Position numbers and translations under genes: made by a program. Below, piece after piece: positions 10,468-24,273 of a stretch of DNA of 27,721 bases. This DNA comes from Breznakia sp. PF5-3. GTDB taxonomy: Bacteria; Bacillota_I; Bacilli_A; Erysipelotrichales; Erysipelotrichaceae. Every line of letters starts with the position of its first letter. Position 1 is the first letter of the stretch. The notes beneath the pieces are model-generated. The model saw only the letters and a program-made list of their open reading frames with translations, was not told where the DNA came from and did not search any database. The stretch covers positions 1-27,721 of the forward strand of contig NZ_JAQFIQ010000030.1 of NCBI RefSeq assembly GCF_029504745.1, given 5' to 3'.

Positions 10468-10548
10468 TTTATATTCTCCTTTTTCTTTTTTCTTCTTCAC
10501 TGCTGTTTGATAATACTTCTACTATCACCTCCATGGTTCAATTTCTAT

Positions 10549-10633: not shown

Positions 10634-11197
10634 TTATACCTTGTCCTTTGCAATAGATTTCCACCACATAGCAAAGCTTACCTCTTTATACTTACTTTCA
10701 TCATCATTACTAGCAACACAATAATCAAATATTGAAATAATAGACCCATAAAAACTACTTACAATCAGTTGATCAGGAATGTCAATAAAATAACCTTTTT
10801 TAATAAGTTCCTCAAATACTTTTTTAATAAAAACAAAAGTTGCAGCTGGTTGCTGTTCTCTTAGATATCTCAAATCTGGTAACGTGCTATACATATTAAA
10901 GAAAATGAACGCCTCTTTATTTTCCAAAAACCAATTTAAACATGCATACCAAACTTTCTTGACACTATCTTTATTCAATGACGAGTCAGCAATACCATCA
11001 GAAATCGTTTTTCTAAAAGAATCAATTTTCCATAAATATAGAAAAACAATTAATTCATCCTTTGTTTTAAAATAATAAAACAATGTTCCATTTGACACAT
11101 TTGCTGCATTCGCAATCTTTGCCGTTGTTGTACTTTGTAAGCCATCTTTCGCAAACAATGATAATGCTGTAGTTAAAATTTTTTCACGATTTTCCAT
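10634..11197 (-). CDS. TetR/AcrR-family transcriptional regulator
   Basis: N-terminal HTH REKILTTALSLFAKDGLQSTTTAKIANAANVSNGTLFYYFKTKDELI. Start moved to the ATG at 11197 (GGAGG 5 nt upstream) rather than the TTG at 11209. Confidence 0.9.
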   Translation of the reverse strand: MENREKILTTALSLFAKDGLQSTTTAKIANAANVSNGTLFYYFKTKDELIVFLYLWKIDSFRKTISDGIADSSLNKDSVKKVWYACLNWFLENKEAFIFFNMYSTLPDLRYLREQQPAATFVFIKKVFEELIKKGYFIDIPDQLIVSSFYGSIISIFDYCVASNDDESKYKEVSFAMWWKSIAKDKV

Positions 11198-11262
11198 AAT
11201 ATCCTCCAAATTATCAATTACGTAACATCAATTACCATATTAACATAGTGGAGCTAAAACCT

Positions 11263-11410: not shown

Positions 11411-11863
11411 TTATTTACACTTAGCCCCTGCGTCTTCCATTTCTTTAACGAAATCATCAAACTTCATGTTTTTAAGTTCTTCTGTATCACTACCTGTCAT
11501 ATTGAATTCACGTGGCAATTCATCTAACTTTTGAATATCCATTGTTACTTCAATCTTCATTACGTTACCATCAATAGAAGATGAAATTTTAATTCCATCG
11601 TATTGTGAAAGATTTTCATTCATTTCATCTTCGTATGCTTTTAAATCTTCATCACTCATTTCTTTATAAAGATCATTTTCATTTTCTGCTTTGAAAGTTA
11701 GTTTTCCTACTTTTCCATCATCCTCTTTAATTTCAATTTCCATTTCCATTCCTGCAACATCTTCACCTACTGTACATACTTTTGTACCTGAAGAACTGCC
11801 TCCCCCTGAACATCCTGCTACTAATAATAATGTAGCAAATAAACTAGCTAATAATTTTTTCAT
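11411..11863 (-). CDS. Small acidic lipoprotein (function unknown)
   Basis: Lipobox signal MKKLLASLFATLLLVAG|CSGGGSSSG. RBS AAAAGGAGAG upstream. The mature part is acidic. No enzymatic motif recognised. Confidence 0.8.
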   Translation of the reverse strand: MKKLLASLFATLLLVAGCSGGGSSSGTKVCTVGEDVAGMEMEIEIKEDDGKVGKLTFKAENENDLYKEMSDEDLKAYEDEMNENLSQYDGIKISSSIDGNVMKIEVTMDIQKLDELPREFNMTGSDTEELKNMKFDDFVKEMEDAGAKCK

Positions 11864-11980: not shown

Positions 11981-12013
11981 GAAATGAAAAAGAATCCATT
12001 ATAGATTCTTTTT
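11981..12013 (-). terminator. Intrinsic terminator after the PL8 gene
   Basis: Minus strand AAAAAGAAUC-UAUAAUG-GAUUCUUUUUCAUUUC. 10-bp stem (12004-12013 / 11987-11996). Confidence 0.7.
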
Positions 12014-12030
12014 CTTCTATATTCTATTTA

Positions 12031-13400
12031 TTATTTACGAATATATTTCTTTCTTCTATATGTTCCATACATTGCAAGTCCTGCTAATGCCATCAAACTC
12101 ACCAAAGTGTTTACATCTGTTGTATCTCCTGATGCTACTCCTTTCGCTGATGTTGCTGCTTTGCTTGGACTACTTACTTTCTTTAATCCATTCATTGCTT
12201 TTTGTAATTTCAATTCTGCTGCTTTTACTTCTTCTTGGGTTACTTCTTCATTATTCAAGACTGCTTGTGCTTCTTTGATTGCTGCATTTAATGTATTCAC
12301 ACTACCTGCTGTGTAACCTTTTACTTCTAAGTTGTTTGCTTTTGTAACCATCTTAGATAACGCACTTGTATCTGCTTTCAATCTTGCTTTTAACTTCTCT
12401 TTTGTTAGTGCTTTTGTTGCTGCATCAATCTCGGCTTGTGTCTTACCATTCGCTAATACTTTCTTTGCACTTTCTAATGCTGCTGGTAATCCTTTGATTG
12501 ATGATGCTACATACTTCGTTTTGTTTTCTAAGATCTTTTCAACCGCTGCTATTTCTCTTTCTAACGCTTCCGTATTGATCTTTCTTTCCAATCCATTGAT
12601 TGCATCAAACAAGTCTTTGTATGCTTTTGCTACTTCTGTTTCTGTTGCATCATCATTCGCTACTACCGTTTTCGCTGCTGCCAATGCTGTTTCTAGTTTC
12701 GCCCAGCTTTCTGCACTGTAGTCTGCTTCTGCATACTTCTCAGCAATGATGATAAGTGATGTCAATTCACTCTTATCAACAATATCCCACAATTGACTCA
12801 TTGCATCTGCAATCTTGTCTGTTGCTGCGATAATCGCTGCTTTGTCTTTGCTGTTTGCTTCTACTAATGCTTTTCCTTCGGCTACTGCTGTTTCTAATTC
12901 TTTTACTTTTCCTGGACGATAGCTACTTGTATCTCCATCTAAGATATCTTGTGCTATTTCCACATGTATCTCAAGTGTATCTAGTAAAGAATTCGTTTCT
13001 GCTTTATTCGCTTCTAATACTTTCTTTGCCTCAAATAGATCTTCTATTGCTTTGCTTACTTCACTTGATGAAAGGTCTTCTCTACCTTTTGCTAGTAATG
13101 TTTCACTTTCTTCAATAAGTGCTTTCATATCTGCAAAGTCTGCTTCTGTGAAATCATCTTCCATTGTTTTACAAGTATCTATTAATGTTTCTAATGCATC
13201 TACTGCTTCTTTTGATGCACGTGGTTCTAGATTCTTAATTGCTTCATCCAATGCTTTAACTGCTTCTTTTACTTCTGATGCAGAAGCATCTACATCTAAA
13301 TTCACAGCTGTTTCATAAGCATCCTTAAATGCATCCCATGAAGATGATGTCATTGTATCTTCTTTATCATCATCGATGATTGCTTCTGCTTCAGCAATCT
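12031..13400 (-). repeat. Copy A of a roughly 1.4 kb near-identical coding repeat (FIVAR stalk + C-terminal anchor module)
   Basis: Aligns with 18443-19842 at offset 6412 near the 3' end and 6442 after a 30-nt indel. The antisense shadow ORFs in the supplied track recur at the same offsets (12060/18472, 12855/19297, 13052/19494). Confidence 0.9.
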
Positions 13401-16400
13401 TTTCATCAAGTTCGCTACGATCAACATTTAATTCTACAACAATCGTAAATGTTTTACCTGCTGCTCCACTTGTGTTAATAGAGAATGTTTCATCTCCATT
13501 TTGTGTTACTTTATCACTTTTTGAAACCAATGACTTATAACCATCTGTAAGTTCTAATTTCAATGATATTGCATTTTGTTTTGGATTACTGATAGAAATC
13601 GTCATAACACCATCTACTGTTTCTGTATAGATACATGCTGGTGCACTTACTTTAAATCCATTTACTTCAATATTATCTGCAAATGTATTTAATGCAAATA
13701 CATTACCTTCACTAATTGCATGTGCATTTTCGTTATTGATAATTTCAAGATCATTATCCTTTGCATATGCTGCTAGTGAAGCTTCACTAGCATCTGGGAA
13801 TAATACATATTCATATTTTCCATCTACTGATGTTGAACCATGGTTAATTCCTAAACTAAAGAAATCCATAGTATATGTTTTATCATTTACAAAATAATTA
13901 TTAATATCTGAATATTTACCAGTTCTTTCTTCTACCAATGCTTTTACATCTTGTGCAGTTGGGAAGTAATATCCAATTTGTGTATTTGTTGATGCTTCAT
14001 CATAGTGTACATAAGATCCTTCACCTAAGTTTAATGTTTCTTTTGCATTGGTCCATTTTGTTCCATTTACCGAAATCTTAGAGTCATCACTTATTACTCT
14101 ATTTTCAATTGTTGTTTCAATGGTATCCGTTGTTGTTCCATCAATATCACTACCAACTGCAACAATCTTATCACCTAAGAAGAACCATGATTTTTTCGCT
14201 TTTAAATTCATGTTTGTAACATGACCTTTATTTAAGAACATTGCACCTGTACCATTGATTCCATCACTAACACCACCAACCAATGATTGTGCTGATTTTT
14301 CACTTTGGTCAGAACCGTTGTTTCGACTTCTTGTATCCGTTGTCGTTCCTGCTAAGCGTAAAGAATCAATTGCTGTCCAATATCCTTCTCCATATTGCTT
14401 GAAATCATTTGTATATAAATACAATGCTCCATCTGCTGTATGCCATCCTCTAGGATTTTCTGTATTTCCATATTCATAGTTATTAATTCTTGATGAATAC
14501 ATAGAAAGTCCAACTGCATATGTATCTTTAGATTGCGTTATTCTATCCATAGATCCATACACTTTCATTCCTGTATATCGTTTTGCCTCTATATTATTAT
14601 CATTTAATAATGCTTTTGCATTTAATAAAGATTCAATATCTCTAGCATTTGCAAAGAAATCATATTCCTCTGCACTACCTTGCAACCAATATTTAATTGC
14701 TTCATCGATTTGGGAACTATACTTTTCAGGTGCAAATTGTGAAATCAACATTAAATTAGAAATGGTTTCTGACCCTGATGCTAATTCAGTTGTAAATGGA
14801 TTTGTTCCTGGTGCTCTAGAAATACTTCTTCCATTTACCATTGCCATCATTCTTCCTCTTTCCATAAGTGGAATATATCCTTCTACAGCTGTGTTGTATA
14901 CATTTTCAATCCTTGCATCTTTAATTTCCCAATCTGTTCCTGCTGTTATTGATTGAATCTTACCAATCCCCTTCATCAGCTCATTTCCATAACTACCTGT
15001 ATAAGCATGTGCTGTATGTTGGATTACTGATCCATCTGCGTACAAACCATCCCCTTTAGTAACTAATTTCATTACATCTGGAACTTTTGTAAGTACTAAA
15101 TTCATTCTACTATCGTTTCTGGCTACAATTGCACTTCCCAATACAGCCAATCCGATATCAGTACGATTTGCACCAGAAGCTGTATAACTTGGCCATTGTA
15201 TTGCTGGATCTTTCGCATATCCTTCTACACTCTTCACGGCTGCTTCTATATCCGTGTACTCAGAATAGTCTTTTAAGATAATCAACGTATCAACAAGTTG
15301 ATGTGTACATCCAATCTGCCAATCCCACCAGTTTCCTGTATAATATACACCGTTATATTTTCTATTTACAACCATGAAATCAAGAGCTGAAAGAATATCA
15401 TTGTACAACGCTTTATTTTGATATAATGCACTTCCTTTGGTTCCAAAAGCTAAAGTAAGCTTTTTAATTTTTGTAAATTGAGTTGTATAGTCAGCTGCCA
15501 CTGTACTATCACTCATATCCCACAACGTTGTACGATCACTTTCCTTATGCATGCTATCCCATAGTTCTTGAGCTTCATCAGAAACATTCTTAATGTAGGC
15601 TGCTACATCTGGATCATTTAAATCCAATGTATCATCTCCAACAACTCGGCGTAACCAACGATCTTGCATCGTATCATAATCTGGGTTGTAAGTTGGTTGT
15701 TCAACATTAACATCTAATGTTGCTTTTATTTCTGGATTTTCTTTACTAGCTACTGTAATTACAGCTTTACCTAAACCAACACATTCTACCAATCCATCTT
15801 TATTTACTACTGCAACATTTTCATCATCACTTGAATAAGTTACTTCAAGATCAGCATCAATTGCTTTTGAAGGATATACACTATACTCAACAAAGCGTTT
15901 ATCTCTTGGTGTAAGATTTAGTTCTTCTTCATCAAAAACTAACTTGCTCACCTTAACAGGTCCATCAACTATTTCAACCTCAAAGGTAGCAAAAACATTA
16001 TCATCAACTGCTGATTTTACTGTAATTGTTGCCGTTCCAGCACCAACTCCTGTTATTGTTCCATCTGTATCAACCTTTGCTACTAACTCATTATCCGATA
16101 CATAAGTCACTGCTTTATGTTGCGCAAGAGTTGGAGTAATTTCAGGTTTTAAAGCAATTTCATCGCCTATTGAAATAACATCCGATGTTGATGGTAATGT
16201 AATTTCTTCAATCAAAAACTCTTTATATACTTCCATTTCATAAAAACTAGTACTATATAATTGTTTATTTGAATGCAGCCATCTTTCAAGTTGTTGATAT
16301 TTTACATATCTTGCTTTTGTCATTGTGAAAGACGCTTGAACTACTCCATCAACACCATGTTCACCGTTCATTTCTTCATATACTTTTGTCCAATCACTTC

Positions 16401-18132
16401 CATTTTCAGAAACTAGAATTTGATACTTTGGAGCTGCCGATTCAAAATGAATTAAAACTTCACTAATATCTTTTACTTCACCTAAGTCAACCGTTAACCA
16501 TGCTTCATCAATTTTATTTCCTGACCATCTTGTAGACATACTTCCATCTACAACGTTTTCACCAACAAACTGTGGATATTTCCACGTACCATCAGTATTT
16601 TTATCACCCTCAACACCTGAATAAGTGACAGCTTTTTTATATGCTAAATTAAATGTTTCTAAATCATTATAAGCTTTTATCAAAGCTTCTGTTGCTGTAT
16701 TAACTTGTTCTTGTGTAGTAAGTGTATTTACACCTGTTTTAGCATCTTCTAAAGCTTTTTCAAATGCTTTTGTACTTGTTTCAGTAAATGCTTTTGTATC
16801 TACTGCTTCATATTCATTAATCATTGCCTTTAACCATTGATATGACACAGCATCTTCATCTAAGAACTCTACTTCCGCCCAGAATAAGTTATGATCAGAT
16901 AATGTTGTTTTCACATTTTGAACATTATTGATCTTTAAATTTCTACTCACTAAAATATTATCAATACAATTATGCTTCATTGTATTATCAACACCATTAT
17001 AAGTTTCATGCCAAATTCCATCATATCCATTTGCCATATCCATATCTTCTAAGAAGGTATAAAACTCACTATAGTATTGATCCGCATTAAAATCTCCTAC
17101 GGCAATCTTATATTCAATAGGATCTGCTGCCAGAGCTGCTTTCAATTGAGCAAATTGTTTTTCTCTTATTTTTGGTGTTTCCCAACTTAAATGCAAGTTA
17201 TAAAAAGCAATCTTTTTTCCATTTTTCGTTATAACTGAGCGTTGAAAAACACGAGCTTCATCTGCCCCCGTTGTATCTACATATGTTGTTGATGTATCAT
17301 CAAGAGCATAACGTGATGCACTTCCAATTCCATATTGTCCACCACTAAAATCAATCGCTTTAGAAAAATAACTTGCCGTATAATTATTGGAAGCAAATTT
17401 TTCTAACATATCATAATTATTTCTACCTGTATTTACATCAACTTCTTGTAAACCTACAATTTCAAGATTATAAAGATCACTAAGATTACGTTGTGCATCA
17501 ACATCAGGTTTTTTTCCTGCTGCAATATTGAATGTTCCAACCCGTAGTGTATCATCTTTAATTGCCATATCATCATGTTCATATACTTCTAATTCATAGA
17601 TACTACTACCATAGTAACTTCCATTCGTAGCATGTAACCATTGTTTATGTTGCACATATTTCACATATCGTGCACTCTTTCCTTGTGCAGAAAAAGTCTT
17701 AGAAACCGTATTTCCACGACTTCCATCGCTGATGTTAGCAATCGAAGTATAGGTCTTTCCATCTTTGGAGATCATTATTTCATATGCTGTTGTTTCCGCA
17801 TGAAAATCTACTACAATATCTCCGATGCTATATTCTTTTCCAAGGTCAACTTCTAACCATTGTTCATATGCTTCTGGTCCTGCTTTAATATTTTCAGCAG
17901 ACCATCTTTTATTAACATCCTGTGTAATTCCATCAACTGCCATTTCTCCAACAAATTTTGGATAAGTCCATGTGCCATCTCCTTTTTTTCCACCTTCAAC
18001 ACCAGAGTATGTCACCGTTTTATGCAATGCTAAATTATCTGTTTCAGCAGAAATAACAGCTGAAAATGAAGTTTGAAACATACTGATTAGCACAGCTAAT
18101 CCTAAACTAAGCTTTAATATTTTCTTTATCAT
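12031..18132 (-). CDS. Giant secreted polysaccharide lyase family 8 enzyme (hyaluronate/chondroitin-lyase type). Domain order: F5/8-C, EEP, FIVAR, F5/8-C, 2x Big_2, PL8, FIVAR stalk, TM anchor
   Basis: PL8 signatures TGNWWDWQIGCTHQL, DGSVIQHTAHAYTGSYGNELM, RGWHTADGALYLY, YWTAIDSLRLAGTTTD. EEP block LRVGTFNIAAGK...GLQEV...GDFNAD...LSDHNLFWAEVEF. Big_2-like VTYVSDNELVAKVDTDGTITGVGAGTATITVKS. Signal peptide MIKKILKLSLGLAVLISMFQTSFSA. RBS AAGGGGGAAAT before the ATG at 18132. Confidence 0.92.
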   Translation of the reverse strand: MIKKILKLSLGLAVLISMFQTSFSAVISAETDNLALHKTVTYSGVEGGKKGDGTWTYPKFVGEMAVDGITQDVNKRWSAENIKAGPEAYEQWLEVDLGKEYSIGDIVVDFHAETTAYEIMISKDGKTYTSIANISDGSRGNTVSKTFSAQGKSARYVKYVQHKQWLHATNGSYYGSSIYELEVYEHDDMAIKDDTLRVGTFNIAAGKKPDVDAQRNLSDLYNLEIVGLQEVDVNTGRNNYDMLEKFASNNYTASYFSKAIDFSGGQYGIGSASRYALDDTSTTYVDTTGADEARVFQRSVITKNGKKIAFYNLHLSWETPKIREKQFAQLKAALAADPIEYKIAVGDFNADQYYSEFYTFLEDMDMANGYDGIWHETYNGVDNTMKHNCIDNILVSRNLKINNVQNVKTTLSDHNLFWAEVEFLDEDAVSYQWLKAMINEYEAVDTKAFTETSTKAFEKALEDAKTGVNTLTTQEQVNTATEALIKAYNDLETFNLAYKKAVTYSGVEGDKNTDGTWKYPQFVGENVVDGSMSTRWSGNKIDEAWLTVDLGEVKDISEVLIHFESAAPKYQILVSENGSDWTKVYEEMNGEHGVDGVVQASFTMTKARYVKYQQLERWLHSNKQLYSTSFYEMEVYKEFLIEEITLPSTSDVISIGDEIALKPEITPTLAQHKAVTYVSDNELVAKVDTDGTITGVGAGTATITVKSAVDDNVFATFEVEIVDGPVKVSKLVFDEEELNLTPRDKRFVEYSVYPSKAIDADLEVTYSSDDENVAVVNKDGLVECVGLGKAVITVASKENPEIKATLDVNVEQPTYNPDYDTMQDRWLRRVVGDDTLDLNDPDVAAYIKNVSDEAQELWDSMHKESDRTTLWDMSDSTVAADYTTQFTKIKKLTLAFGTKGSALYQNKALYNDILSALDFMVVNRKYNGVYYTGNWWDWQIGCTHQLVDTLIILKDYSEYTDIEAAVKSVEGYAKDPAIQWPSYTASGANRTDIGLAVLGSAIVARNDSRMNLVLTKVPDVMKLVTKGDGLYADGSVIQHTAHAYTGSYGNELMKGIGKIQSITAGTDWEIKDARIENVYNTAVEGYIPLMERGRMMAMVNGRSISRAPGTNPFTTELASGSETISNLMLISQFAPEKYSSQIDEAIKYWLQGSAEEYDFFANARDIESLLNAKALLNDNNIEAKRYTGMKVYGSMDRITQSKDTYAVGLSMYSSRINNYEYGNTENPRGWHTADGALYLYTNDFKQYGEGYWTAIDSLRLAGTTTDTRSRNNGSDQSEKSAQSLVGGVSDGINGTGAMFLNKGHVTNMNLKAKKSWFFLGDKIVAVGSDIDGTTTDTIETTIENRVISDDSKISVNGTKWTNAKETLNLGEGSYVHYDEASTNTQIGYYFPTAQDVKALVEERTGKYSDINNYFVNDKTYTMDFFSLGINHGSTSVDGKYEYVLFPDASEASLAAYAKDNDLEIINNENAHAISEGNVFALNTFADNIEVNGFKVSAPACIYTETVDGVMTISISNPKQNAISLKLELTDGYKSLVSKSDKVTQNGDETFSINTSGAAGKTFTIVVELNVDRSELDEKIAEAEAIIDDDKEDTMTSSSWDAFKDAYETAVNLDVDASASEVKEAVKALDEAIKNLEPRASKEAVDALETLIDTCKTMEDDFTEADFADMKALIEESETLLAKGREDLSSSEVSKAIEDLFEAKKVLEANKAETNSLLDTLEIHVEIAQDILDGDTSSYRPGKVKELETAVAEGKALVEANSKDKAAIIAATDKIADAMSQLWDIVDKSELTSLIIIAEKYAEADYSAESWAKLETALAAAKTVVANDDATETEVAKAYKDLFDAINGLERKINTEALEREIAAVEKILENKTKYVASSIKGLPAALESAKKVLANGKTQAEIDAATKALTKEKLKARLKADTSALSKMVTKANNLEVKGYTAGSVNTLNAAIKEAQAVLNNEEVTQEEVKAAELKLQKAMNGLKKVSSPSKAATSAKGVASGDTTDVNTLVSLMALAGLAMYGTYRRKKYIRK
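13440..15700 (-). other. PL8 lyase core (alpha-helical N domain + beta-sandwich domains)
   Basis: Extends from DYDTMQDRWLRRVVG to ...KTFTIVVELNV and contains all PL8 motifs listed for the parent CDS. Boundaries are approximate. Confidence 0.75.
16864..17547 (-). other. Endonuclease/exonuclease/phosphatase (EEP, DNase I / sphingomyelinase fold) domain embedded in the PL8 protein
   Basis: The ordered EEP catalytic motifs appear retained: FNI(N), LQEV(E), NLHLS(H), GDFN(D,N), IDNIL(D), SDHN(D,H). Confidence 0.75.
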
Positions 18133-18331: not shown

Positions 18332-18359
18332 ATTATAAAGTATTTGCATAAAATAGCAA
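18332..18359 (-). promoter_or_regulatory. Sigma-A-type promoter for the PL8 leader (TTGCTA-16-TATAAT)
   Basis: -35 TTGCTA (18354-18359), 16-nt spacer, -10 TATAAT (18332-18337) on the minus strand, about 45 nt upstream of the RAT box. Confidence 0.6.
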
Positions 18360-18442: not shown

Positions 18443-19842
18443 CTATTTAGTATGTTTCAATCTTTTTCTGAATGTTCCATACATCGCAAGTCCTGCCAAT
18501 GCCATCAAACCAACTAGACTATTTATATCTGTTGTATCTCCTGATGCTACTCCTTTCGCTGATGTCGATGCTTTTCTACCTCCATCTTTACTACTTGGTG
18601 CTTTGCTTGGACTATTTACTTTCTTTAAGTTTTTCATCGCTTTTTGTAACTTCATTTCTGCTGCTTTCACTTCCGCTTCACTTACTTCTTCATTCTTAAT
18701 GACTGCTTGTGCTTCTTTGATTGCTGCATTCAACGCTTTTACACTGTCTGCTGTATATCCTTTTACTTCTAAGTTGTTTGCTTTTGTAACCATCTTAGAT
18801 AACGCACTTGTATCTGCTTTCAATCTTGCTTTTAACTTCTCTTTTGTTAATGCTTTTGTTGCTGCATCAATCTCGGCTTGCGTTTTACCATTTGCTAATA
18901 CATTCTTAGCACTTTCTAATGCTGTTGGTAATCCTTTGATTGATGATGCTACATACTTCGCTTTGTTTGCTAAGATCTTTTCAACCGCTGCGATTTCTCT
19001 TTCTAACGCTTCTGTATTGATCTTTCTTTCCAATCCATTGATTGCATCAAACAAGTCTTTGTATGCTTTCGCCACTTGTGCTTCTGTTGCATCATCATTC
19101 GCTACTATCGTTTTCGCTGCTGCCAATGCTGTTTCTAGTTTTACCCAGCTTTCTGCACTGTAGTCTGCTTCTGCATACTTCTCAGCAATGATGATAAGTG
19201 ATGTCAATTCACTCTTATCAACAATATCCCACAACTGACTCATTGCATCCGCAATCTTGTCTGTTGCTGCGATAATCGCTGCTTTGTCTTTGCTGTTTGC
19301 TTCTACTAATGCTTTTCCTTCAGCTACTGCTTTTTCTAATTCTTTTACTTTTCCTGGTCGATAGCTACTTGTATCTCCATCTAAGATATCTTGTGCTATT
19401 TCCACATGTATCTCAAGTGTATCTAGTAAAGAATTCGTTTCTGCTTTATTCGCTTCTAATGCTTTCTTTGCATCCAATAAGTCTTCTATTGCTTTGCTTA
19501 CTTCACTTGATGAAAGGTCTTCTCTACCTTTTGCTAGTAATGTTTCACTTGCTTCAATAAGTGTTTTCATACCTGCAAAGTCTGCTTCTAAGAAATCATC
19601 TTCCATTGCTTTACAAGTATCTATTAATGTTTCTAATGCATCTACTGCTGTTTCTGATGCACGTGGTTCTAGATTCTTAATTGCTTCTTCTAATGCTAAT
19701 TTGGCTACTTTCACTTCAATAGCTGAAGCATTTTCATCCAAATTCACAGCTGTTTCATAAGCATTCATAAATGTGTTCCATGAAGATGATGTCATTGTAT
19801 CTTCTTTATCATTGTCGATGATTGCTTCTGCTTGTTCAATTA
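18443..19842 (-). repeat. Copy B of the roughly 1.4 kb near-identical coding repeat (FIVAR stalk + C-terminal anchor module)
   Basis: See copy A. Protein tracts such as KAETNSLLDTLEIHVEIAQDILDGDTSSYRPGKVKELE and SQLWDIVDKSELTSLIIIAEKYAEADYSAESW are identical in both genes. An extra 10 codons (PSSKDGGRKA-like) lie at about 18566-18595. Confidence 0.9.
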
Positions 19843-22800
19843 GCGCTTGCAATTCTTTATTATCGCCTCTTTCATTTAATACTAACGATGTCATCTTAGA
19901 CATTAATTGTCCTTTCATGATTTCTACATTATTAGCATCTGGATTTGTTTCTTCTACCAAAGTTTTTGCTTCTGCTATTTTATCTTGAAGCGCATCCCAA
20001 GATTCAGAAGTATAACCAATATTTTCAATTGCTTCTGCTTGTTCAATTAATGTACTCAAGCCATCAGTATCGGCAACTGTGTTTGCCAAGTGTAATTTCA
20101 ATTCCGTAGCAGTACCATTGTTATTAACCGCTTGAAGATATACTAAACGTACATGTTGAGTAGTTACTTCATCAAATTCTAAAACAACTGCATCTCTTGT
20201 AGATGTTGAAAGTGTTCCTTCTTTTACTTTCGTATAATTAATACCATCACTACTTACTTGAACTTCATATTTTGTAGCCATTCCATTTGTTCCACCAGTT
20301 TGACGTGGTAAATATGTTAATCCATTAATTGCTTCTGGTGTATCAATTTTTAAATCAATCCAATGCGGCATTATTGTTATGTTCCAATTTGTATGCCACA
20401 TTGTTCCTTCATCACCATCAATTGCTAATTCAGGACCTGAACCTCCTTGATAAGATGATGCAGTAGCTTTAAGTCTATTATTATCAACATAATTTATGTT
20501 TCCTTTAGCTTTTAACTCTAATCCTTGTAATGCATCTGCAAGAAGTTTTTCATAACCATCTACTACATCTTGTAAAGATATAGGAAGATCTTCACGAATA
20601 CTTTCTAATACAGATGTTAATACATTTACAGAAGCATCTGTAAACATTGATAAGTCATCTGCGATAAGATTGCGATATGCATCTACACGACTATAATCTG
20701 CTTTTTCATAATCAAGTGTATCAATAATGTTATTTATTTGTTCAACTAATGTTTGTACTTCATTAGCATCTGGTGCAAACTTACCTAACACTTGCTCAGC
20801 ATCTTCCACAAGTGCTGTTAATTCTGCATTTTCTTTATCTTTTAATATTTCTTTTGCATTCCATATTGCATAATCCAACTTCATTGTTGAATTGTATTCT
20901 TTACTAACACCTAAACGTACATCATCTACATATCCTATGAAACTATTACTCTTACTTCCAATTCTAGCAAATGGAATCATCGTTGTTGCTAATAGTGGTC
21001 TTCCTTCTACTTTTTCACCATCACCAAGTGTATCAACAAGTTCTCCATTAACATATAATTGTGCAACGTTATGTTGATTTTTAATTTCTAATTCAACCCA
21101 TTCATTTACTGGCAATGTATAATCAAATGAATAATCAAAGTTTTCTCTTGTGAATCCCACTTTACCAGTATCTTTTTGAACAGCTTTAATACTTCCATAG
21201 TCACTCTCAAATAAAATTTGTTCATCTGTACTATCTGAAGTTCTTTTTACTTTTACACGAAGATCGTTTCCTAAACCTATGGTTGTAAGCTCACTCTCTA
21301 CATAACTCTTACCACCTTTTAGAGAAAGAGCATTTTTATTATCAACCTTTTTGATTTCAGCATTCTCTCCAGCTTTCAAATCTCTTTTATTTGCTGTACT
21401 ATCTGTTAATGAATCCATAAGGAAATGAGCAATTTCTTCTCCCTTACTATCTACTTTATAATCAAAGTTTGTACCTGGTGCACTTCCTAGAATATCTTTT
21501 GTAGCGGTTGCTTGCGCTAGATCCATTGATCCTTTTCCCCACAATTTCGCCGCCATTAATGGAATTGGTGCCTTTATACGATCGTATACATCATATTCAC
21601 TTACTCCATTATCAAGATAATCAGTCATATCATTCCAAACCGCAATTGCTCCACCAATCATCTGCTTATCACCTGCTGGAATTGTCACACCACCAATAGA
21701 ATTAATCGCTAAGTTGTATACCGTACCATTATTTAAATAATCATAATAGTACCCTGCATTTGGAACGATATAATAATTTCCATCATTACAATTAATTAAA
21801 TCATAACCTTCTTCATACATTGCATTCATATTAGCATAACCAAAGTTCCATAAATTCATCTGTACATCTTTACTTCGTACAGGTGTTGTCCCTTTACTAA
21901 CGCTTAGACTACCCCAAATTCTTGCTGTTCTTCCTGTATCTTGCGTATATTTCAACATATCATCTGCAAACTTACGATAAGCTTCATGATTTGCATTATA
22001 TTCATCTGCTCCAACATGAATGATAGTATCTTCATCAAAGACAGGGTTTGATACATCAGAACCCATATATTCATCAAAGATGTCCTTTACAAAAGCAATA
22101 CTTTCATCATATTTTGATGTTAAGTTTAAATGATCATTATCACGTCCATATGTTCCATGACGCAAATCAGGACGCACTTTTGTAAGTGCCAATGAATGTG
22201 CTGGTGTATCAATTTCTGGAACAATATTAACTCCATAGATTCTTGATTCCTTAATGAAATTTCTAAACTCATCTTTCGTATAGAATACATCTGTACTTGT
22301 TAAATCCGCTTGATTTAATCCATTATTTCCACCTTTTTTAATATCTGATTCTAATCGGAATCCAGAATAAGCATCCATTGGATCTAACCCTTTTGCAGAA
22401 TAATTTTCAAGTGGTATTAAATTATCATTTAAATGTACTTGGAAGTCATTCATCTTATACCATGACATTTCTTTAACAACTTGTTCTAAATAATCTAAAG
22501 TAAATGTTTTTCTACCAACATCTAAGATAAAACCACGAACCTCATAAAGTGGATAATCTCTCGTAATTCCTTTTGGAATACTATCATTGGCTTTTATACT
22601 TTGTAAAATTGTTCTTGTAGCCCAGTATGCACCTGTTGTTGTTTCTGCCTCTACTTTTACACTATCTGAGATATCAATGATATAACCTTCTTCTTGTAAT
22701 CCTTTTGATGTATCACTTGTAAGTGCAAAGTAAAAATCTTGTGCTGATGCACTACCATTTACAACTTCAATATCATTCCCTGTAATTTCCTTATAATCCT

Positions 22801-24187
22801 TTGCAAACGCTTCTGCTACATCTTGTAATTTAGCATCTGCAATTACTACACGACTTGCTTGGGTTGGAACAAATTCTCCACTTCCACCTTTCCACTCACG
22901 TAATTCAGGAAGAACAACAGGAGATGCATTATCTGTTTCTTCTTTTATGTAAGTTCCTGGAATTTTTACTTCTTTTTCTTCAAATTCATATTTTTCTGTT
23001 TTCTTATCAACAATCTTGAATGATACTTTCACAGATGTATCTACTACTGGTTCATAAATTGATAAATCTTCATCTACCACTTGTTCATAATCTGTACCAT
23101 TGTATGTAATATCATAATCTTCTGTATCTGGATATTTTACTACTAACTTTTTATCTCCTTTTACAGGTTGAACAATTTCAATATTTTCCTTAATATCTGA
23201 AATGTTTTCTTTTGGTTCTCCTCCATATACTTCCATCTCATATAAAGAAACCGTGTTCCATTCTACTCCACCATCTGGATCTTCTTTAGTAGCACTATCG
23301 ATATATAAACGAACATAACGAGCTTTTACAACTTCATCTAAGACGATTTTTTCATTTATCTTTGATGGACGATCATTAAATTCTTTAACTTTGGTCCAAT
23401 CACTTTCTTGCATTGGTTCACTTAATGTATCAGCAACTTGAATTGAATATTTTGTTGCTTTTCTATTTTCCCAAAACAAACGTAATGTTTTAACATTCAT
23501 CTTTGCTCCTAGGTCAACATAAAGCCAATGTGGCGCATTTTTAACTGCACTTGCCCACCTTGATGTACGTGAACTTGTATCTCCATCAAAAGCTTTTGCT
23601 GCAGATAAAGTACTTGCTTCAATTGTACTAGCAACACCTGTTTTCCCTAAGGCTACATTTTCATTTGGATCTTGTGGTGCTTCATCACCTGTATATTTCA
23701 CTTTAAAATCTCTACATGAAACACTTGGATATCCCTTTACTTTGGTAACTTCAAGTTTCACATACCTACCTACTACAGGCGCTTTTAAAATATCTTCTGA
23801 TTTCTTAGTAGTATTCCCTACTTTTGCTACAACTGGTGTTCCCCACTCACTTGTACTATCAGAAACATAAATATTGTAATTTTCCGCATAAACACTATCA
23901 CTTTCCCAAATCATTGAGAAATAGTCCATGTTTAAAGATTCTCCCAAATCAACATAAGCCCATTGTGTAGCATCCCTTTCTGATGACCAACGACTCTCTG
24001 GATCACCATCTGTCAAATACGATGCAGGCATAGATGAATATGCATTACTAGCAGTAACAGGTTTGTTAAGTGCTAAATCATCAAATGATGGTTCTTGAGC
24101 ATTAATTTTAATACCGCCTGGAAGCATCGTTGTTATACATAATATACTTACTAAGACATACTTATAAAACTTTTTGATTTTTTTCAT
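18443..24187 (-). CDS. Giant secreted GH20 beta-N-acetylhexosaminidase (lacto-N-biosidase/StrH-like). Domain order: 2x F5/8-C, GH20b + GH20, LamG-like, FIVAR, F5/8-C, FIVAR stalk, TM anchor
   Basis: GH20 signatures YEVRGFILDVGRKTFTLDYLEQVVKEMSWYKMNDFQVHLNDN, VPEIDTPAHSLA, and the catalytic D-E in HVGADEY (22001-22006). LamG-like block ...VAQLYVNGELVDT...IGYVDDVRLG. Signal peptide MKKIKKFYKYVLVSILCITTMLPGG. Start moved to the ATG at 24187 rather than the GTG at 24256, which lies in the leader. Confidence 0.92.
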   Translation of the reverse strand: MKKIKKFYKYVLVSILCITTMLPGGIKINAQEPSFDDLALNKPVTASNAYSSMPASYLTDGDPESRWSSERDATQWAYVDLGESLNMDYFSMIWESDSVYAENYNIYVSDSTSEWGTPVVAKVGNTTKKSEDILKAPVVGRYVKLEVTKVKGYPSVSCRDFKVKYTGDEAPQDPNENVALGKTGVASTIEASTLSAAKAFDGDTSSRTSRWASAVKNAPHWLYVDLGAKMNVKTLRLFWENRKATKYSIQVADTLSEPMQESDWTKVKEFNDRPSKINEKIVLDEVVKARYVRLYIDSATKEDPDGGVEWNTVSLYEMEVYGGEPKENISDIKENIEIVQPVKGDKKLVVKYPDTEDYDITYNGTDYEQVVDEDLSIYEPVVDTSVKVSFKIVDKKTEKYEFEEKEVKIPGTYIKEETDNASPVVLPELREWKGGSGEFVPTQASRVVIADAKLQDVAEAFAKDYKEITGNDIEVVNGSASAQDFYFALTSDTSKGLQEEGYIIDISDSVKVEAETTTGAYWATRTILQSIKANDSIPKGITRDYPLYEVRGFILDVGRKTFTLDYLEQVVKEMSWYKMNDFQVHLNDNLIPLENYSAKGLDPMDAYSGFRLESDIKKGGNNGLNQADLTSTDVFYTKDEFRNFIKESRIYGVNIVPEIDTPAHSLALTKVRPDLRHGTYGRDNDHLNLTSKYDESIAFVKDIFDEYMGSDVSNPVFDEDTIIHVGADEYNANHEAYRKFADDMLKYTQDTGRTARIWGSLSVSKGTTPVRSKDVQMNLWNFGYANMNAMYEEGYDLINCNDGNYYIVPNAGYYYDYLNNGTVYNLAINSIGGVTIPAGDKQMIGGAIAVWNDMTDYLDNGVSEYDVYDRIKAPIPLMAAKLWGKGSMDLAQATATKDILGSAPGTNFDYKVDSKGEEIAHFLMDSLTDSTANKRDLKAGENAEIKKVDNKNALSLKGGKSYVESELTTIGLGNDLRVKVKRTSDSTDEQILFESDYGSIKAVQKDTGKVGFTRENFDYSFDYTLPVNEWVELEIKNQHNVAQLYVNGELVDTLGDGEKVEGRPLLATTMIPFARIGSKSNSFIGYVDDVRLGVSKEYNSTMKLDYAIWNAKEILKDKENAELTALVEDAEQVLGKFAPDANEVQTLVEQINNIIDTLDYEKADYSRVDAYRNLIADDLSMFTDASVNVLTSVLESIREDLPISLQDVVDGYEKLLADALQGLELKAKGNINYVDNNRLKATASSYQGGSGPELAIDGDEGTMWHTNWNITIMPHWIDLKIDTPEAINGLTYLPRQTGGTNGMATKYEVQVSSDGINYTKVKEGTLSTSTRDAVVLEFDEVTTQHVRLVYLQAVNNNGTATELKLHLANTVADTDGLSTLIEQAEAIENIGYTSESWDALQDKIAEAKTLVEETNPDANNVEIMKGQLMSKMTSLVLNERGDNKELQALIEQAEAIIDNDKEDTMTSSSWNTFMNAYETAVNLDENASAIEVKVAKLALEEAIKNLEPRASETAVDALETLIDTCKAMEDDFLEADFAGMKTLIEASETLLAKGREDLSSSEVSKAIEDLLDAKKALEANKAETNSLLDTLEIHVEIAQDILDGDTSSYRPGKVKELEKAVAEGKALVEANSKDKAAIIAATDKIADAMSQLWDIVDKSELTSLIIIAEKYAEADYSAESWVKLETALAAAKTIVANDDATEAQVAKAYKDLFDAINGLERKINTEALEREIAAVEKILANKAKYVASSIKGLPTALESAKNVLANGKTQAEIDAATKALTKEKLKARLKADTSALSKMVTKANNLEVKGYTADSVKALNAAIKEAQAVIKNEEVSEAEVKAAEMKLQKAMKNLKKVNSPSKAPSSKDGGRKASTSAKGVASGDTTDINSLVGLMALAGLAMYGTFRKRLKHTK
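21530..22925 (-). other. GH20b + GH20 catalytic region of the 18443-24187 gene
   Basis: Runs from VVLPELREWKGGSGEF to PIPLMAAKLWGKG. Boundaries are approximate. Confidence 0.7.
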
Positions 24188-24273
24188 ATTTTCTTTTCCT
24201 TTTTTAGTTCCTTTCTCATTTAGTTCACAAACTCCTGCACCTTTTCTTTCTATCACCTCATATCTAACAAATT

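What the first reader, a model, noticed from the sequence alone, without database searches (positions are those of the whole stretch)
16864..17547. Apparently active EEP (DNase I/sphingomyelinase-fold) domain fused to a PL8 hyaluronate-lyase-type enzyme and bracketed by duplicated F5/8-C modules
The block LRVGTFNIAAGK...LQEVD...FYNLHLS...VGDFNAD...CIDNILVS...LSDHNLFWAEVEF retains the ordered N/E/H/D-N/D/D-H residues expected of catalytically competent EEP enzymes. It is flanked by two paralogous F5/8-type-C domains whose N-termini are clearly related (LALHKTVTYSGVEGGKKGDGTWTYPKFVGEMAVDG versus LAYKKAVTYSGVEGDKNTDGTWKYPQFVGENVVDG). This looks like a domain-duplication/insertion event. I do not know of a characterised PL8 lyase with an EEP domain. 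Surface-anchored EEP nucleases are known in streptococci (SpnA, SsnA). Inference: this may be a bifunctional enzyme attacking both a glycosaminoglycan matrix and extracellular DNA, phospholipid head groups or another phosphoester substrate.
Basis: partly seen in the sequence, partly recalled or inferred. Interest (0 to 1): 0.65.

Follow-up and report, generated by a model that had tools for sequence, protein, structure and literature searches.

The report
Sugar-phosphodiesterase-like module in a surface lyase
A gut Firmicute's 2033-residue surface enzyme combines a polysaccharide lyase with an intact second catalytic domain whose nearest tested relatives strip phosphocholine or phosphoethanolamine from N-acetylglucosamine, so it more likely uncaps phosphate-decorated sugars than cuts DNA or membrane lipid.

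Summary
Window 16864-17547 (minus strand) encodes residues 196-423 of a 2033-aa secreted, membrane-anchored protein: signal peptide, F5/8-C, EEP, FIVAR-like linker, F5/8-C, two Big_2, PL8 lyase, FIVAR stalk, anchor. All eight canonical EEP residues are present and conserved in homologues. The two F5/8-C modules are true paralogues (43% identity, E 2e-38).

The architecture is not unique. PL8+EEP fusions occur in at least 8 representative protein clusters and in a Thomasclavelia genome. The same EEP module is also fused to GH20, GH123, GH16, GH89, GH85 and GH98 enzymes.

The closest characterised relatives are not SpnA-type nucleases or sphingomyelinases. They are the GlcNAc-PDase phosphodiesterases (Fossa 2023), which remove phosphocholine or phosphoethanolamine from C6 of GlcNAc. 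I recovered two of those sequences; the window domain is 31-33% identical to them (81-92 bits, against 20 bits to the best solved structure). In a crude tree it falls in a sister clade.

Best reading (about 0.5): a glycan-directed phosphodiesterase module that uncaps HexNAc residues for the attached or neighbouring enzymes. This is a new variant of a known kind. No activity was tested.

The parts
12031..18132 (-). Whole gene: 2033-aa multimodular surface protein (signal peptide, F5/8-C, EEP, linker, F5/8-C, Big_2 x2, PL8, FIVAR stalk, anchor)
   Evidence: ORF list and translation. Pfam architecture. An identical protein is encoded in NCBI assembly GCA_029504715.1.
18046..18132 (-). N-terminal signal peptide, about residues 1-29 (MIKKILKLSLGLAVLISMFQTSFSAVISA|ETDN)
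   Evidence: Read directly from the translation: a basic N-terminus, a hydrophobic core and an A-x-A-like site. The cleavage site is inferred, not predicted with a tool.
17575..18033 (-). F5/8 type C (CBM32-like) module 1, about residues 34-186
   Evidence: Pfam PF00754/PF22633, two stretches. 43% identical to module 2, E 2e-38. 57% identical to the first module of the orthologues L001 and P0036.
16864..17547 (-). EEP (PF03372) catalytic module, residues 196-423. Conserved residues and their codons: N202 (17527-17529), E230 (17443-17445), H314 (17191-17193), D347 (17092-17094), N349 (17086-17088), D391 (16960-16962), D413 (16894-16896), H414 (16891-16893).
   Evidence: Pfam 55.5 bits against a cut-off of 24.5. 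Conservation in alignment A1. AF2 model with pLDDT 92.3 and pTM 0.90. Foldseek matches to EEP structures with TM 0.63-0.73. 31% identity to GlcNAc-PDase and 33% to the MBE6669927-like protein, with all mutated metal-site residues aligned.
16657..16857 (-). Helical FIVAR-like linker after the EEP module, residues 426-492
   Evidence: Similar linkers follow the EEP module in P0035, P0038, L001 and P0040 (35-37% identity, E 5e-8 to 1e-6). A helix begins at the end of the AF2 model. Pfam FIVAR hits follow the EEP in P0039 and P0040.
16219..16656 (-). F5/8 type C (CBM32-like) module 2, residues 493-638
   Evidence: Pfam best stretches at 517-616 and 526-611. Paralogue of module 1. 50-60% identical to the second module of L001, P0036 and P0037.
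15697..16206 (-). Two Big_2 Ig-like modules, residues 643-812
   Evidence: Pfam PF02368, two stretches, E 1.2e-14. Conserved in the orthologues at 39-43% identity.
13564..15657 (-). PL8 polysaccharide lyase catalytic region (Lyase_8_N, Lyase_8, Lyase_8_C), residues 826-1523
   Evidence: Pfam E 1.6e-96, 2.5e-66 and 2.9e-05. NCBIfam HylB 671 bits, below its cut-off of 1350. Best solved matches are xanthan lyase 6f2p (1e-112), chondroitin AC lyase (2e-81) and hyaluronate lyase (3.5e-78). The GANR, DGSxxQHxxxAYxGxYG and GR motifs are aligned.
12163..13455 (-). FIVAR-rich helical stalk, about residues 1560-1990
   Evidence: Pfam FIVAR, 3 stretches, E 5e-21. 84% identical over 479 residues to the C-terminus of the neighbouring GH20 protein. 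DNA repeats at 87-90% identity.
12034..12141 (-). C-terminal anchor: hydrophobic segment (TLVSLMALAGLAMYGTY) followed by a basic tail (RRKKYIRK), with no canonical LPXTG
   Evidence: Read from the translation. Pfam Gram_pos_anchor is not hit. The neighbouring GH20 protein has the same ending. Whether this is a sortase signal or a membrane anchor is not decided.
18332..18359 (-). Promoter-like site (TTGCTA-16-TATAAT, 10 of 12) about 200 bases upstream of the start codon
   Evidence: Consensus scan. This is a pattern match only; the region has fewer such sites than shuffles do.
11986..12014 (-). Terminator-like hairpin 17 bases after the stop codon
   Evidence: Consensus scan: a 13-pair stem followed by a T-rich tail. 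A pattern match only.
18443..24256 (-). Upstream neighbour: 1937-aa GH20 beta-N-acetylhexosaminidase with three F5/8-C modules, Laminin_G_3 and a FIVAR stalk. Candidate partner for an uncapping activity.
   Evidence: Pfam. The C-terminal stalk is shared with the PL8 protein.
4510..10500 (-). Downstream neighbour: 1996-aa GH84 beta-N-acetylglucosaminidase with four F5/8-C stretches and FIVAR
   Evidence: Pfam NAGidase E 2.3e-86.
10634..11209 (-). TetR-family regulator between the GH84 and PL8 genes
   Evidence: Pfam TetR_N E 2.4e-14.

Best explanation
The gene encodes a cell-surface, two-enzyme protein of a gut Erysipelotrichales-type Firmicute. Its closest genomic relatives are Thomasclavelia species.

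One catalytic unit is a PL8 lyase that cleaves a uronic-acid polysaccharide. The likely substrate is hyaluronan or chondroitin, but specificity is not settled.

The second unit, the EEP module, is a metal-dependent phosphodiesterase of the subfamily that contains the GlcNAc-PDases. It sits between two CBM32-like glycan-binding modules. I infer that it hydrolyses a phosphodiester-linked substituent from a HexNAc residue of a glycan. Candidates are phosphocholine, phosphoethanolamine, or a related group such as glycerol phosphate. Such a substituent would otherwise block exo- and endo-acting enzymes. Removing it would make the glycan accessible to the lyase on the same polypeptide and to the GH20 and GH84 hexosaminidases encoded next door.

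Shown here: the architecture, the intact catalytic residues, the homology to characterised GlcNAc-6-PC/PE phosphodiesterases, and the recurrent fusion to HexNAc-active enzymes.

Inferred: the substrate class, the uncapping role and the cooperation between modules.
For: 1. The catalytic set is complete and conserved. The AF2 model is confident, with pLDDT 92.

2. I recovered GlcNAc-PDase itself from the gene-specific part of its published PCR primer. It is 286 aa, has VPG|SG at residues 32-36, carries N60, E89, D204, N206, D266 and H267 at the published positions, and ends in PEVQRDEA. I also recovered an MBE6669927-like protein in locus L055; both primer-encoded termini match and it is 296 aa.

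3. The window EEP is 31% identical to GlcNAc-PDase (81 bits, E 2e-22) and 33% identical to the MBE6669927-like protein (92 bits, E 2e-26). The characterised enzymes are 34-38% identical to each other and share one specificity (PMC10704324; one search gives 37.7%).

4. Against the 52-member clade holding both enzymes, the window EEP has a median identity of 32.6% and a median of 92 bits. GlcNAc-PDase against its own clade gives 34.0% and 112 bits.

5. The best solved structure scores only 20.6 bits (3teb).

6. Residues conserved in both clades but absent from 3teb include the D of QEVD, a following R, the E of an ExR motif, the N of an (A)NG motif and the N of IDN.

7. The E-to-D and N-to-DH spacings are 117 and 64 residues, against 115 and 60 in GlcNAc-PDase.

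8. The module is repeatedly fused to enzymes acting on HexNAc-containing glycans and to glycan-binding modules. Partners found: PL8 (8 representative clusters), GH20, GH123, GH16, GH89, GH85 and GH98, plus F5/8-C, CBM96 and Laminin_G_3. EEP+GH20 on one chain mirrors the published coupled assay, in which the phosphodiesterase must act before a beta-hexosaminidase can (PMC10704324).

9. The EEP is the best-conserved module among the PL8 orthologues: 61-64% identity, against 53-57% for PL8 and 39-43% for Big_2.

10. Some standalone homologues lie in sugar-utilisation loci with PTS systems, GH38, GH1, GH13 and GH35.
Against: No activity was measured.

In a crude neighbour-joining tree, the window EEP lies in a 170-member sister group, outside the 52-member clade spanned by the two characterised enzymes. 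Internal branches are very short and no bootstrap was run.

Several positions differ between the two groups. The SRYP motif of the PDase clade is SRYA in the window, and the DPxEY and (N)G positions are specific to the window group. Specificity could therefore differ.

The window domain does not reach Pfam PF23226, the PGAP2IP/Cwh43-type model that many PDase-clade proteins hit. Its 48%-identical relative P0005 does, at 32.1 bits against a cut-off of 27.

As far as I know, no phosphodiester substituent is known on hyaluronan or chondroitin, so the link to the PL8 module is unexplained.

Two of six genomic contexts of standalone homologues are uninformative.

The characterised PDases sit near cell-wall glycopolymer synthesis genes, not catabolic loci.

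Fusion to surface enzymes could reflect shared localisation rather than shared substrate.
Confidence: 0.5

Rival explanations
1. Surface nuclease. The EEP module degrades extracellular DNA (mucus, NETs, biofilm) alongside the lyase, giving a fused pair of spreading factors analogous to streptococcal SpnA/SsnA plus hyaluronidase.
For: The EEP catalytic set is the same as in nucleases. Foldseek ranks TDP2, a DNA 5'-phosphotyrosyl diesterase, among the top hits (E about 1e-13, TM 0.64-0.69). The LPXTG-anchored relative P0041 has a weak partial match to exonuclease III (E 5.6e-6, 25.8 bits against a cut-off of 280). Surface-anchored EEP nucleases exist in streptococci (my own knowledge). Some relatives combine the EEP with a metallophosphoesterase, which could be a nucleotidase-like partner.
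Against: The profile search of the PDB finds no DNase I or CdtB at E<1, and exonuclease III only at 0.05-0.15. No DNase I, exonuclease III, APE1 or CdtB entry is in the Foldseek top 50. The characterised sugar phosphodiesterases score 81-92 bits. No OB-fold or other nucleic-acid-binding module is present; the flanking modules are glycan-binding. The metallophosphoesterase partner resembles Rv0805 and GpdQ only weakly.
Confidence: 0.17
2. Sphingomyelinase C or phospholipase-C-like enzyme. It would cleave phosphocholine-type head groups from host membrane lipids to expose or release glycoconjugates.
For: The profile matches S. aureus beta-hemolysin (E 1.4e-11) and the Listeria and Bacillus sphingomyelinases (6.6e-08, 3.4e-05). 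Bc-SMase is a structural neighbour (Foldseek rank 45). The GlcNAc-PDase group clusters near sphingomyelinases in sequence space (PMC10704324). Partner enzymes such as GH123 and GH20 act on glycosphingolipid glycans (my own knowledge).
Against: The sphingomyelinase matches cover only the central half of the domain (profile positions 105-223). The segment between the IDN strand and SDH is about 20 residues here, against about 36 in beta-hemolysin where the membrane-inserting hairpin lies. The domain is compact like the PDases (spacing). GlcNAc-PDase does not cleave the sugar-free substrate 4MU-PC (PMC10704324).
Confidence: 0.1
3. Glycan phosphomonoesterase. The module would remove a terminal phosphate from a sugar, as the Bacteroides mannose-6-phosphatase BT3783 does. 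Possible substrates are Man-6-P on N-glycans or Xyl-2-P of the GAG linkage region.
For: BT3783 (4c1r, 3mpr) is among the best solved matches (profile E 1.8e-9 and 4.2e-9; Foldseek rank 2). A standalone homologue lies next to a GH38 alpha-mannosidase and PTS genes. BT3783 is an EEP acting inside a glycan-degrading system (PMC4978465, found).
Against: Similarity to BT3783 is partial and weak: 13.5 bits pairwise, C-terminal half only. This is far below the similarity to the GlcNAc-PDases, which are diesterases.
Confidence: 0.1
4. Non-catalytic remnant. The EEP fold would be kept as a spacer or binding module.
For: There is no direct evidence of activity. The module is embedded among binding and spacer modules.
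Against: All catalytic residues are retained across at least 17 homologues. The EEP is the most conserved module among the PL8 orthologues. 98 representative clusters match at E<1e-30.
Confidence: 0.04

Closest known systems
GlcNAc-PDase family: sugar-specific EEP phosphodiesterases removing phosphocholine or phosphoethanolamine from C6 of GlcNAc (Fossa et al., J Biol Chem 2023, PMC10704324)
   Same: Both belong to the PF03372 fold and have the same six metal-site residues. The domains are similarly compact. Identity over the whole domain is 31-33%, close to the 34-38% seen among the characterised members. Both come from secreted proteins of gut Firmicutes. Motifs beyond the catalytic set are shared.
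   Different: The window domain is a module inside a 2033-aa anchored multi-enzyme protein. The paper describes its 'Clostridia group' as mostly 219-357-aa single-domain proteins. In my neighbour-joining tree the window domain falls in a sister group, not between the characterised enzymes. It does not hit PF23226. Its substrate is untested.
Streptococcal PL8 hyaluronate lyases (S. pneumoniae Hyl, S. agalactiae HylB) and Bacillus/Paenibacillus xanthan lyases
   Same: Three-part PL8 catalytic region with the Asn/His/Tyr/Arg motifs aligned. E values are 1e-112 to xanthan lyase 6f2p, 3.5e-78 to S. pneumoniae hyaluronate lyase and 2.3e-65 to the S. agalactiae enzyme. The NCBIfam HylB model gives 671 bits.
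   Different: The score is below the HylB equivalog cut-off of 1350. Solved xanthan lyases score higher than hyaluronate lyases. None of these characterised enzymes carries an EEP module, to my knowledge and in my searches. The surrounding architecture (F5/8-C, Big_2, FIVAR stalk) also differs.
Bacteroides thetaiotaomicron BT3783 mannose-6-phosphatase (PDB 4c1r/3mpr; Cuskin et al. 2015, PMC4978465)
   Same: An EEP-fold enzyme serving a glycan-degrading system by removing a phosphate decoration. It is a structural neighbour (Foldseek rank 2, TM 0.65-0.70) and a profile match (E 1.8e-9 for 3mpr, 4.2e-9 for 4c1r).
   Different: It is a monoesterase from Bacteroidota and a standalone protein. Sequence similarity is weak and partial (13.5 bits).
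SpnA/SsnA-type cell-wall-anchored EEP nucleases of streptococci
   Same: EEP catalytic domain displayed on the surface of a Gram-positive cell (my own knowledge).
   Different: I found no sequence evidence placing the window domain with nuclease-type EEPs. There are no nucleic-acid-binding modules; the flanking modules are CBM32-like. A direct comparison was not possible.
Bacterial sphingomyelinases C (S. aureus beta-toxin, B. cereus SMase, Listeria SmcL)
   Same: A neighbouring EEP subfamily with shared central motifs (E 1e-11 to 3e-5).
   Different: Only partial alignment. The window domain lacks the extra length where the membrane-inserting hairpin lies.

Membership tests
EEP superfamily (Pfam PF03372) | Profile match above the curated threshold | tested here: met
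   55.5 bits against a cut-off of 24.5, covering profile positions 1-225 of 225.
EEP superfamily (Pfam PF03372) | Ordered catalytic and metal residues N, E, H, D-x-N, D, D-H | tested here: met
   N202, E230, H314, D347, N349, D391, D413 and H414 are invariant or at least 90% conserved in alignment A1. They align to 3teb and beta-hemolysin and to GlcNAc-PDase.
EEP superfamily (Pfam PF03372) | Four-layer alpha/beta sandwich fold | tested here: met
   AF2 model with pLDDT 92.3 and pTM 0.90. 197 PDB matches at E<=0.001. The top 50 are all EEP structures, with TM 0.57-0.73 normalised to the query.
GlcNAc-PDase family (Fossa 2023) | Sequence similarity to experimentally characterised members at the level seen within the family | tested here: met
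   31% identity and 81 bits to GlcNAc-PDase; 33% identity and 92 bits to the MBE6669927-like protein. Within the family the figure is 34-38% (PMC10704324), and 37.7% was measured. Median against the PDase clade is 32.6%, against 34.0% for GlcNAc-PDase itself.
GlcNAc-PDase family (Fossa 2023) | Metal-site residues shown by mutagenesis to matter (N60, D204, N206, D266, H267; E89 tolerated) | tested here: met
   They align to N202, D347, N349, D413, H414 and E230.
GlcNAc-PDase family (Fossa 2023) | Phylogenetic placement inside the clade spanned by characterised members | tested here: not met
   In the neighbour-joining tree of 233 EEP domains rooted on 3teb, the common ancestor of GlcNAc-PDase and MBE6669927 defines a clade of 52 sequences without the window domain. 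The window domain lies in a 170-member sister group. Internal branches are 0.002-0.03 and there was no bootstrap, so the result is weak. NLD61619 and HCG67795 could not be included.
GlcNAc-PDase family (Fossa 2023) | Secreted single-domain protein of about 219-357 aa | tested here: not met
   Here the EEP is a module of a 2033-aa protein. Standalone secreted homologues of 234-305 aa do exist in the same group.
GlcNAc-PDase family (Fossa 2023) | Mg2+/Mn2+-dependent hydrolysis of GlcNAc-6-PC and GlcNAc-6-PE, with no activity on Gal-, Man- or sugar-free phosphocholine | not testable with these tools
   Needs the recombinant module and the published substrates.
PGAP2IP/Cwh43 C-terminal EEP (Pfam PF23226) | Profile match above threshold | tested here: not met
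   No hit for the window domain even at E<=10. Relatives P0005 (48% identical to the window domain; 32.1 bits), P0029, P0167 and P0028 pass the cut-off of 27.
DNase I / exonuclease III / SpnA-type EEP nucleases | Closest similarity to nuclease EEPs | tested here: not met
   No DNase I or CdtB at E<1. Exonuclease III scores 0.05-0.15 and TDP2 4.8e-4. No NCBIfam family is hit. SpnA itself was not available for comparison.
DNase I / exonuclease III / SpnA-type EEP nucleases | Nuclease activity on DNA | not testable with these tools
   Needs an enzyme assay.
Sphingomyelinase C (bacterial neutral SMase) | Full-length similarity, including the extended C-terminal segment with the exposed hydrophobic hairpin | tested here: not met
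   The alignment to beta-hemolysin covers profile positions 105-223 only. There are about 20 residues between IDN and SDH here, against about 36 in beta-hemolysin.
PL8 polysaccharide lyase | Lyase_8_N, Lyase_8 and Lyase_8_C domains with the catalytic Asn/His/Tyr/Arg motifs | tested here: met
   Pfam E 1.6e-96, 2.5e-66 and 2.9e-05. GANR, QH...AYTGSYG and GR align with xanthan lyase 6f2p. The identity of the catalytic residues rests on my knowledge of PL8 enzymes.
Hyaluronate lyase HylB (NCBIfam NF053732 equivalog) | Score above the equivalog cut-off | tested here: not met
   670.9 bits against a cut-off of 1350. Solved xanthan lyases score higher than hyaluronate lyases. Substrate is undecided.

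The most novel reading that the evidence does not exclude
The EEP module may be a widespread but unrecognised accessory catalytic module of glycan-degrading enzymes in gut Firmicutes, comparable in role to carbohydrate sulfatases or esterases. It would remove a phosphodiester-linked cap from HexNAc residues, and that cap may not be the nematode-type GlcNAc-6-PC of the published family. It could be, for example, a glycerol-phosphate, phosphoethanolamine or GlcNAc-1-phosphate type decoration on host, dietary or microbial glycans. Its repeated fusion to PL8, GH20, GH123, GH89, GH85, GH98 and GH16 enzymes would then mark a hidden class of phosphate-decorated glycan substrates in the mammalian gut.
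Probability: 0.3. Interest if true: 0.75.

Novelty: new variant of a known kind. Interest (0 to 1): 0.55.

Why it matters
Glycan breakdown in the gut is usually described in terms of glycosidases, lyases, sulfatases and esterases. Phosphodiester decorations on sugars have almost no known dedicated degrading enzymes. The one characterised EEP family, GlcNAc-PDase, was described in 2023 as small standalone proteins of unknown natural role.

Close relatives of that family turn out to be built into giant surface enzymes. These include PL8 lyases and GH20, GH123, GH89, GH85 and GH98 glycosidases, usually next to glycan-binding modules. That gives a concrete physiological context and a testable hypothesis: uncapping comes before cleavage. 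It also yields a set of natural two-enzyme fusions that could serve as glycoanalytical tools.

The result also corrects a tempting but weakly supported annotation of this module as a surface DNase or sphingomyelinase.

Tried and rejected
- NCBIfam scan of the EEP domain and three relatives gave no informative family.
- Literature searches with the phrase 'endonuclease exonuclease phosphatase' found nothing, because the slash-separated name is not matched. Searches for Thomasclavelia plus hyaluronan, for EEP domain plus mucin, and for FIVAR plus exo_endo_phos were uninformative. The accession PF03372 combined with 'glycoside hydrolase' found the key paper.
- The paper's supplement holds no protein sequences; its alignment is an image.
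- Searching the fetched proteins for the published residue positions and for VPGSG found nothing.
- Accession look-ups for 20 cluster representatives did not reveal the characterised accessions.
- A profile search with distant relatives did not return them by name either.
- The route that worked was to translate the gene-specific parts of the published primers. I searched the loci already held and found the MBE6669927-like protein in L055. I then scanned the metagenome collection with the native forward primer and found GlcNAc-PDase. NLD61619 and HCG67795 were not recovered.
- A check of the metallophosphoesterase partner in P0050 gave only weak matches to Rv0805 and GpdQ, which did not help decide function.
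- BLOSUM distances from the trimmed alignment are saturated: window to 3teb is 0.81 and window to GlcNAc-PDase is 0.82. I relied on bit scores and topology instead.
- Genomic context of standalone homologues is mixed. Four of six contexts are sugar-related and two are uninformative.
- I considered a recent insertion of F5/8-C plus EEP into a PL8 gene and rejected it, because both F5/8-C copies are conserved as positional orthologues.

Full report
**What is there**

The finding lies in a single long gene on the minus strand, 12031..18132, encoding 2033 residues.

Pfam gives the following order:
- F5/8 type C module 1
- Exo_endo_phos (PF03372) at residues 199-414
- F5/8 type C module 2 at 517-616
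- two Big_2 modules
- the three PL8 domains at 826-1523
- FIVAR repeats

The N-terminus reads as a secretion signal. The C-terminus is a hydrophobic segment followed by a basic tail, with no canonical LPXTG.

An identical protein is encoded in NCBI assembly GCA_029504715.1. A promoter-like site and a terminator-like hairpin bracket the gene; these are pattern matches only.

The neighbours are a 1937-aa GH20 hexosaminidase, a 1996-aa GH84 N-acetylglucosaminidase, a TetR regulator and a small lipoprotein. The window therefore holds an island of giant surface glycan-degrading enzymes.

**Is the EEP domain intact?**

Alone, the domain scores 55.5 bits against a Pfam cut-off of 24.5. In an alignment with 16 homologues, N202, E230, H314, D347, N349 and D391 are invariant. 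D413 and H414 are at least 90% conserved; the only departure is a truncated sequence. An AlphaFold2 model is confident (pLDDT 92.3, pTM 0.90). All 50 Foldseek matches listed are EEP structures.

Among the PL8-bearing orthologues, the EEP is the best-conserved module. It is 61-64% identical, against 53-57% for the lyase and 39-43% for Big_2. That argues for selection on function.

The PL8 region also keeps its catalytic motifs.

**The flanking F5/8-C modules**

They are 43% identical (E 2e-38). They are far closer to each other than to the F5/8-C modules of the neighbouring proteins, so they are paralogues.

The duplication is old. Both copies are present as positional orthologues in a Thomasclavelia genome (L001) and in P0036 and P0037. 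In P0038 the first copy is replaced by CBM96 and Big_4, while the block EEP, linker, F5/8-C, Big_2, PL8 is kept.

**How common is the architecture?**

A full scan of 1.84 billion representative proteins found 1434 relatives of the EEP module at E<=0.001, and 98 at E<=1e-30. Many are very long.

Domain scans of 49 of these relatives, plus four genomic loci, show the same module fused to:
- PL8 (P0037, P0038 and six more clusters; also L001)
- GH20 (P0039, P0042, P0044, P0049 and three more; T. cocleata, T. saccharogumia and a mouse-gut MAG)
- GH123
- GH16
- GH89
- GH85
- GH98
- metallophosphoesterases
- cohesin-dockerin proteins

The module usually sits beside F5/8-C, CBM96, Laminin_G_3 and FIVAR modules. 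Standalone secreted or lipoprotein forms of 234-305 aa occur in Lactobacillales, Erysipelotrichales and Clostridia.

The closest genomes are Thomasclavelia species.

The PL8+EEP fusion is therefore recurrent. I found no paper describing it.

**Which EEP subfamily?**

No curated NCBIfam model matches.

Against solved structures, the single sequence reaches only 20.6 bits, to 3teb, a Leptotrichia protein of unknown function. A family profile gives:

| Solved structure | E-value |
|---|---|
| 3teb | 4e-12 |
| S. aureus beta-hemolysin | 1.4e-11, central half only |
| 3g6s | 9.2e-11 |
| Bacteroides mannose-6-phosphatase BT3783, as 3mpr | 1.8e-9 |
| Bacteroides mannose-6-phosphatase BT3783, as 4c1r | 4.2e-9 |
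| Listeria SmcL | 6.6e-08 |
| Exonuclease III | 0.05-0.15 |
| DNase I, CdtB | absent at E<1 |

A literature search on the Pfam accession led to Fossa et al. 2023 (PMC10704324). That paper describes GlcNAc-PDase, a secreted EEP enzyme from a human gut fosmid. It removes phosphocholine or phosphoethanolamine specifically from C6 of GlcNAc. It needs Mg2+ or Mn2+ and is inactivated by mutating N60, D204, N206, D266 or H267. It defines a family whose three other tested members (34-38% identical) share that specificity.

The paper gives no sequences in text form, but its primer table does. Translating the gene-specific parts let me identify two of the enzymes:
- An MBE6669927-like protein in locus L055, which my own search had already fetched as a relative of the window domain. 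Both termini match, it is 296 aa, and it has a lipoprotein signal ending just before the primer-encoded start.
- GlcNAc-PDase itself, found by an exact-match scan of metagenome contigs with the native forward primer. It is 286 aa, has VPG|SG at residues 32-36, carries all six published residues at their published positions, and has the published C-terminus. It is 37.7% identical to the MBE6669927-like protein, against 38% in the paper.

The window domain compares with them as follows:
- It is 31% identical to GlcNAc-PDase (81 bits, E 2e-22) and 33% identical to the MBE6669927-like protein (92 bits, E 2e-26), over the whole domain. The metal-site residues align.
- Against the 52-member clade holding both enzymes, its median identity is 32.6% and its median score 92 bits. 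GlcNAc-PDase against its own clade gives 34.0% and 112 bits.
- Several non-catalytic positions are conserved in both groups but not in 3teb.
- Domain size and residue spacing match the PDases rather than the larger sphingomyelinases.

**Limits of the assignment**

- In a neighbour-joining tree of 233 EEP domains rooted on 3teb, the two characterised enzymes share a 52-member clade. The window domain lies in a 170-member sister group. Internal branches are very short and I ran no bootstrap. This shows only that the window domain is next to the characterised radiation, and not demonstrably inside it.
- Some positions are clade-specific.
- The window domain misses PF23226, although its 48%-identical relative P0005 passes that model's threshold.
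- The characterised PDases sit near cell-wall glycopolymer synthesis genes: GT2, a TagF-like glycerophosphotransferase and a flippase. Their natural substrates may therefore be wall polymers rather than nematode glycans.
- As far as I know, no phosphodiester decoration is known on hyaluronan or chondroitin.
- The PL8 substrate is itself unsettled. Solved xanthan lyases score higher than hyaluronate lyases, and the HylB equivalog cut-off is not reached.

**Most likely mechanism**

The protein is displayed on the cell surface by its stalk and anchor. The two CBM32-like modules hold a glycan near the EEP active site. The EEP uses its metal centre to hydrolyse a phosphodiester substituent on a HexNAc residue. 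The uncapped glycan then becomes a substrate for the PL8 lyase on the same chain and for the GH20 and GH84 enzymes encoded alongside.

The natural EEP+GH20 fusions found in relatives reproduce on one polypeptide the two-step assay of the published work, in which the phosphodiesterase must act before a hexosaminidase can.

The architecture, the intact residues, the homology and the fusion pattern are shown. The substrate class and the cooperation between modules are inferred. I put this reading at about 0.5.

The rivals are:

| Rival | Confidence | Main point against |
|---|---|---|
| Surface nuclease | 0.17 | No sequence affinity to nuclease-type EEPs; no nucleic-acid-binding modules |
| Sphingomyelinase or phospholipase C | 0.10 | Partial match; missing hairpin segment |
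| Sugar phosphomonoesterase like BT3783 | 0.10 | Similarity is weak and partial |
| Inactive module | 0.04 | Catalytic residues and the module itself are strongly conserved |

**Novelty and verdict**

The kind of enzyme, an EEP sugar phosphodiesterase, is known from one 2023 paper as small standalone proteins. Its incorporation into PL8 and many HexNAc-active glycosidases appears undescribed. I therefore rate it a new variant of a known kind, of moderate interest (0.55), with a clear experimental test.

Noticed in passing
window 12049-13455 and 18461-19897 (minus strand): The C-terminal FIVAR stalk and anchor of the PL8-EEP protein (residues 1560-2028) is 84% identical to that of the neighbouring GH20 protein (residues 1454-1932). 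The DNA segments 12051-12452 and 18463-18894 are 87-90% identical. The catalytic parts are unrelated. This suggests recent recombination or gene conversion between the anchor regions.
   Followed up: partly
window 13564-15657 (minus strand): The PL8 region's best solved matches are Paenibacillus and Bacillus xanthan lyases (E 1e-112 and 4e-100). These are ahead of chondroitin AC lyase (2e-81) and streptococcal hyaluronate lyases (3.5e-78). The NCBIfam HylB score is half its cut-off. The label 'hyaluronate lyase' is therefore not established.
   Followed up: partly
L079 1548-11599; L055 3146-8587: The experimentally characterised GlcNAc-PDase gene (L079 9030-9890, minus strand) lies near a GT2 fused to a TagF-like CDP-glycerol glycerophosphotransferase, a second GT2 and an esterase. 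The MBE6669927-like gene lies next to a polysaccharide flippase. This hints that the family's natural substrates are cell-wall glycopolymers.
   Followed up: partly
proteins P0043, P0045, P0050 (relatives, not in the window): P0043 carries cohesin, dockerin and four tandem EEP domains. P0045 and P0050 combine a metallophosphoesterase with the EEP module in one FIVAR-anchored surface protein, so they have two different phosphoesterases on one chain.
   Followed up: partly
L069 8001-8903; L071 8001-8906; L075 10001-15841: A standalone secreted homologue (P0012) lies between a mannose-type PTS and a block of PTS EIIBC/EIIA, GH38 alpha-mannosidase, RpiR, GH1 and ROK kinase. Another standalone homologue (P0011) and the PL8-EEP orthologue P0037 both lie next to a PTS EIICB and a BglG-type antiterminator.
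   Followed up: partly
window 4510-10500 and 18443-24256 (minus strand): Two further giant surface enzymes flank the gene: GH84 with four F5/8-C stretches, and GH20 with three F5/8-C modules and Laminin_G_3. Neither has an EEP module here, although GH20 relatives in T. cocleata and T. saccharogumia do.
   Followed up: partly
window 11411-11863 (minus strand): A 150-aa predicted lipoprotein (LLVAGCSGG signal) lies between the TetR regulator and the PL8-EEP gene. It has no convincing family; a weak YpjB match falls below the cut-off.
   Followed up: no
window 224-3496 (minus strand): A 1090-aa bacterial SNF2-family helicase with the SNF2_assoc domain. It appears unrelated to the glycan island.
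   Followed up: no
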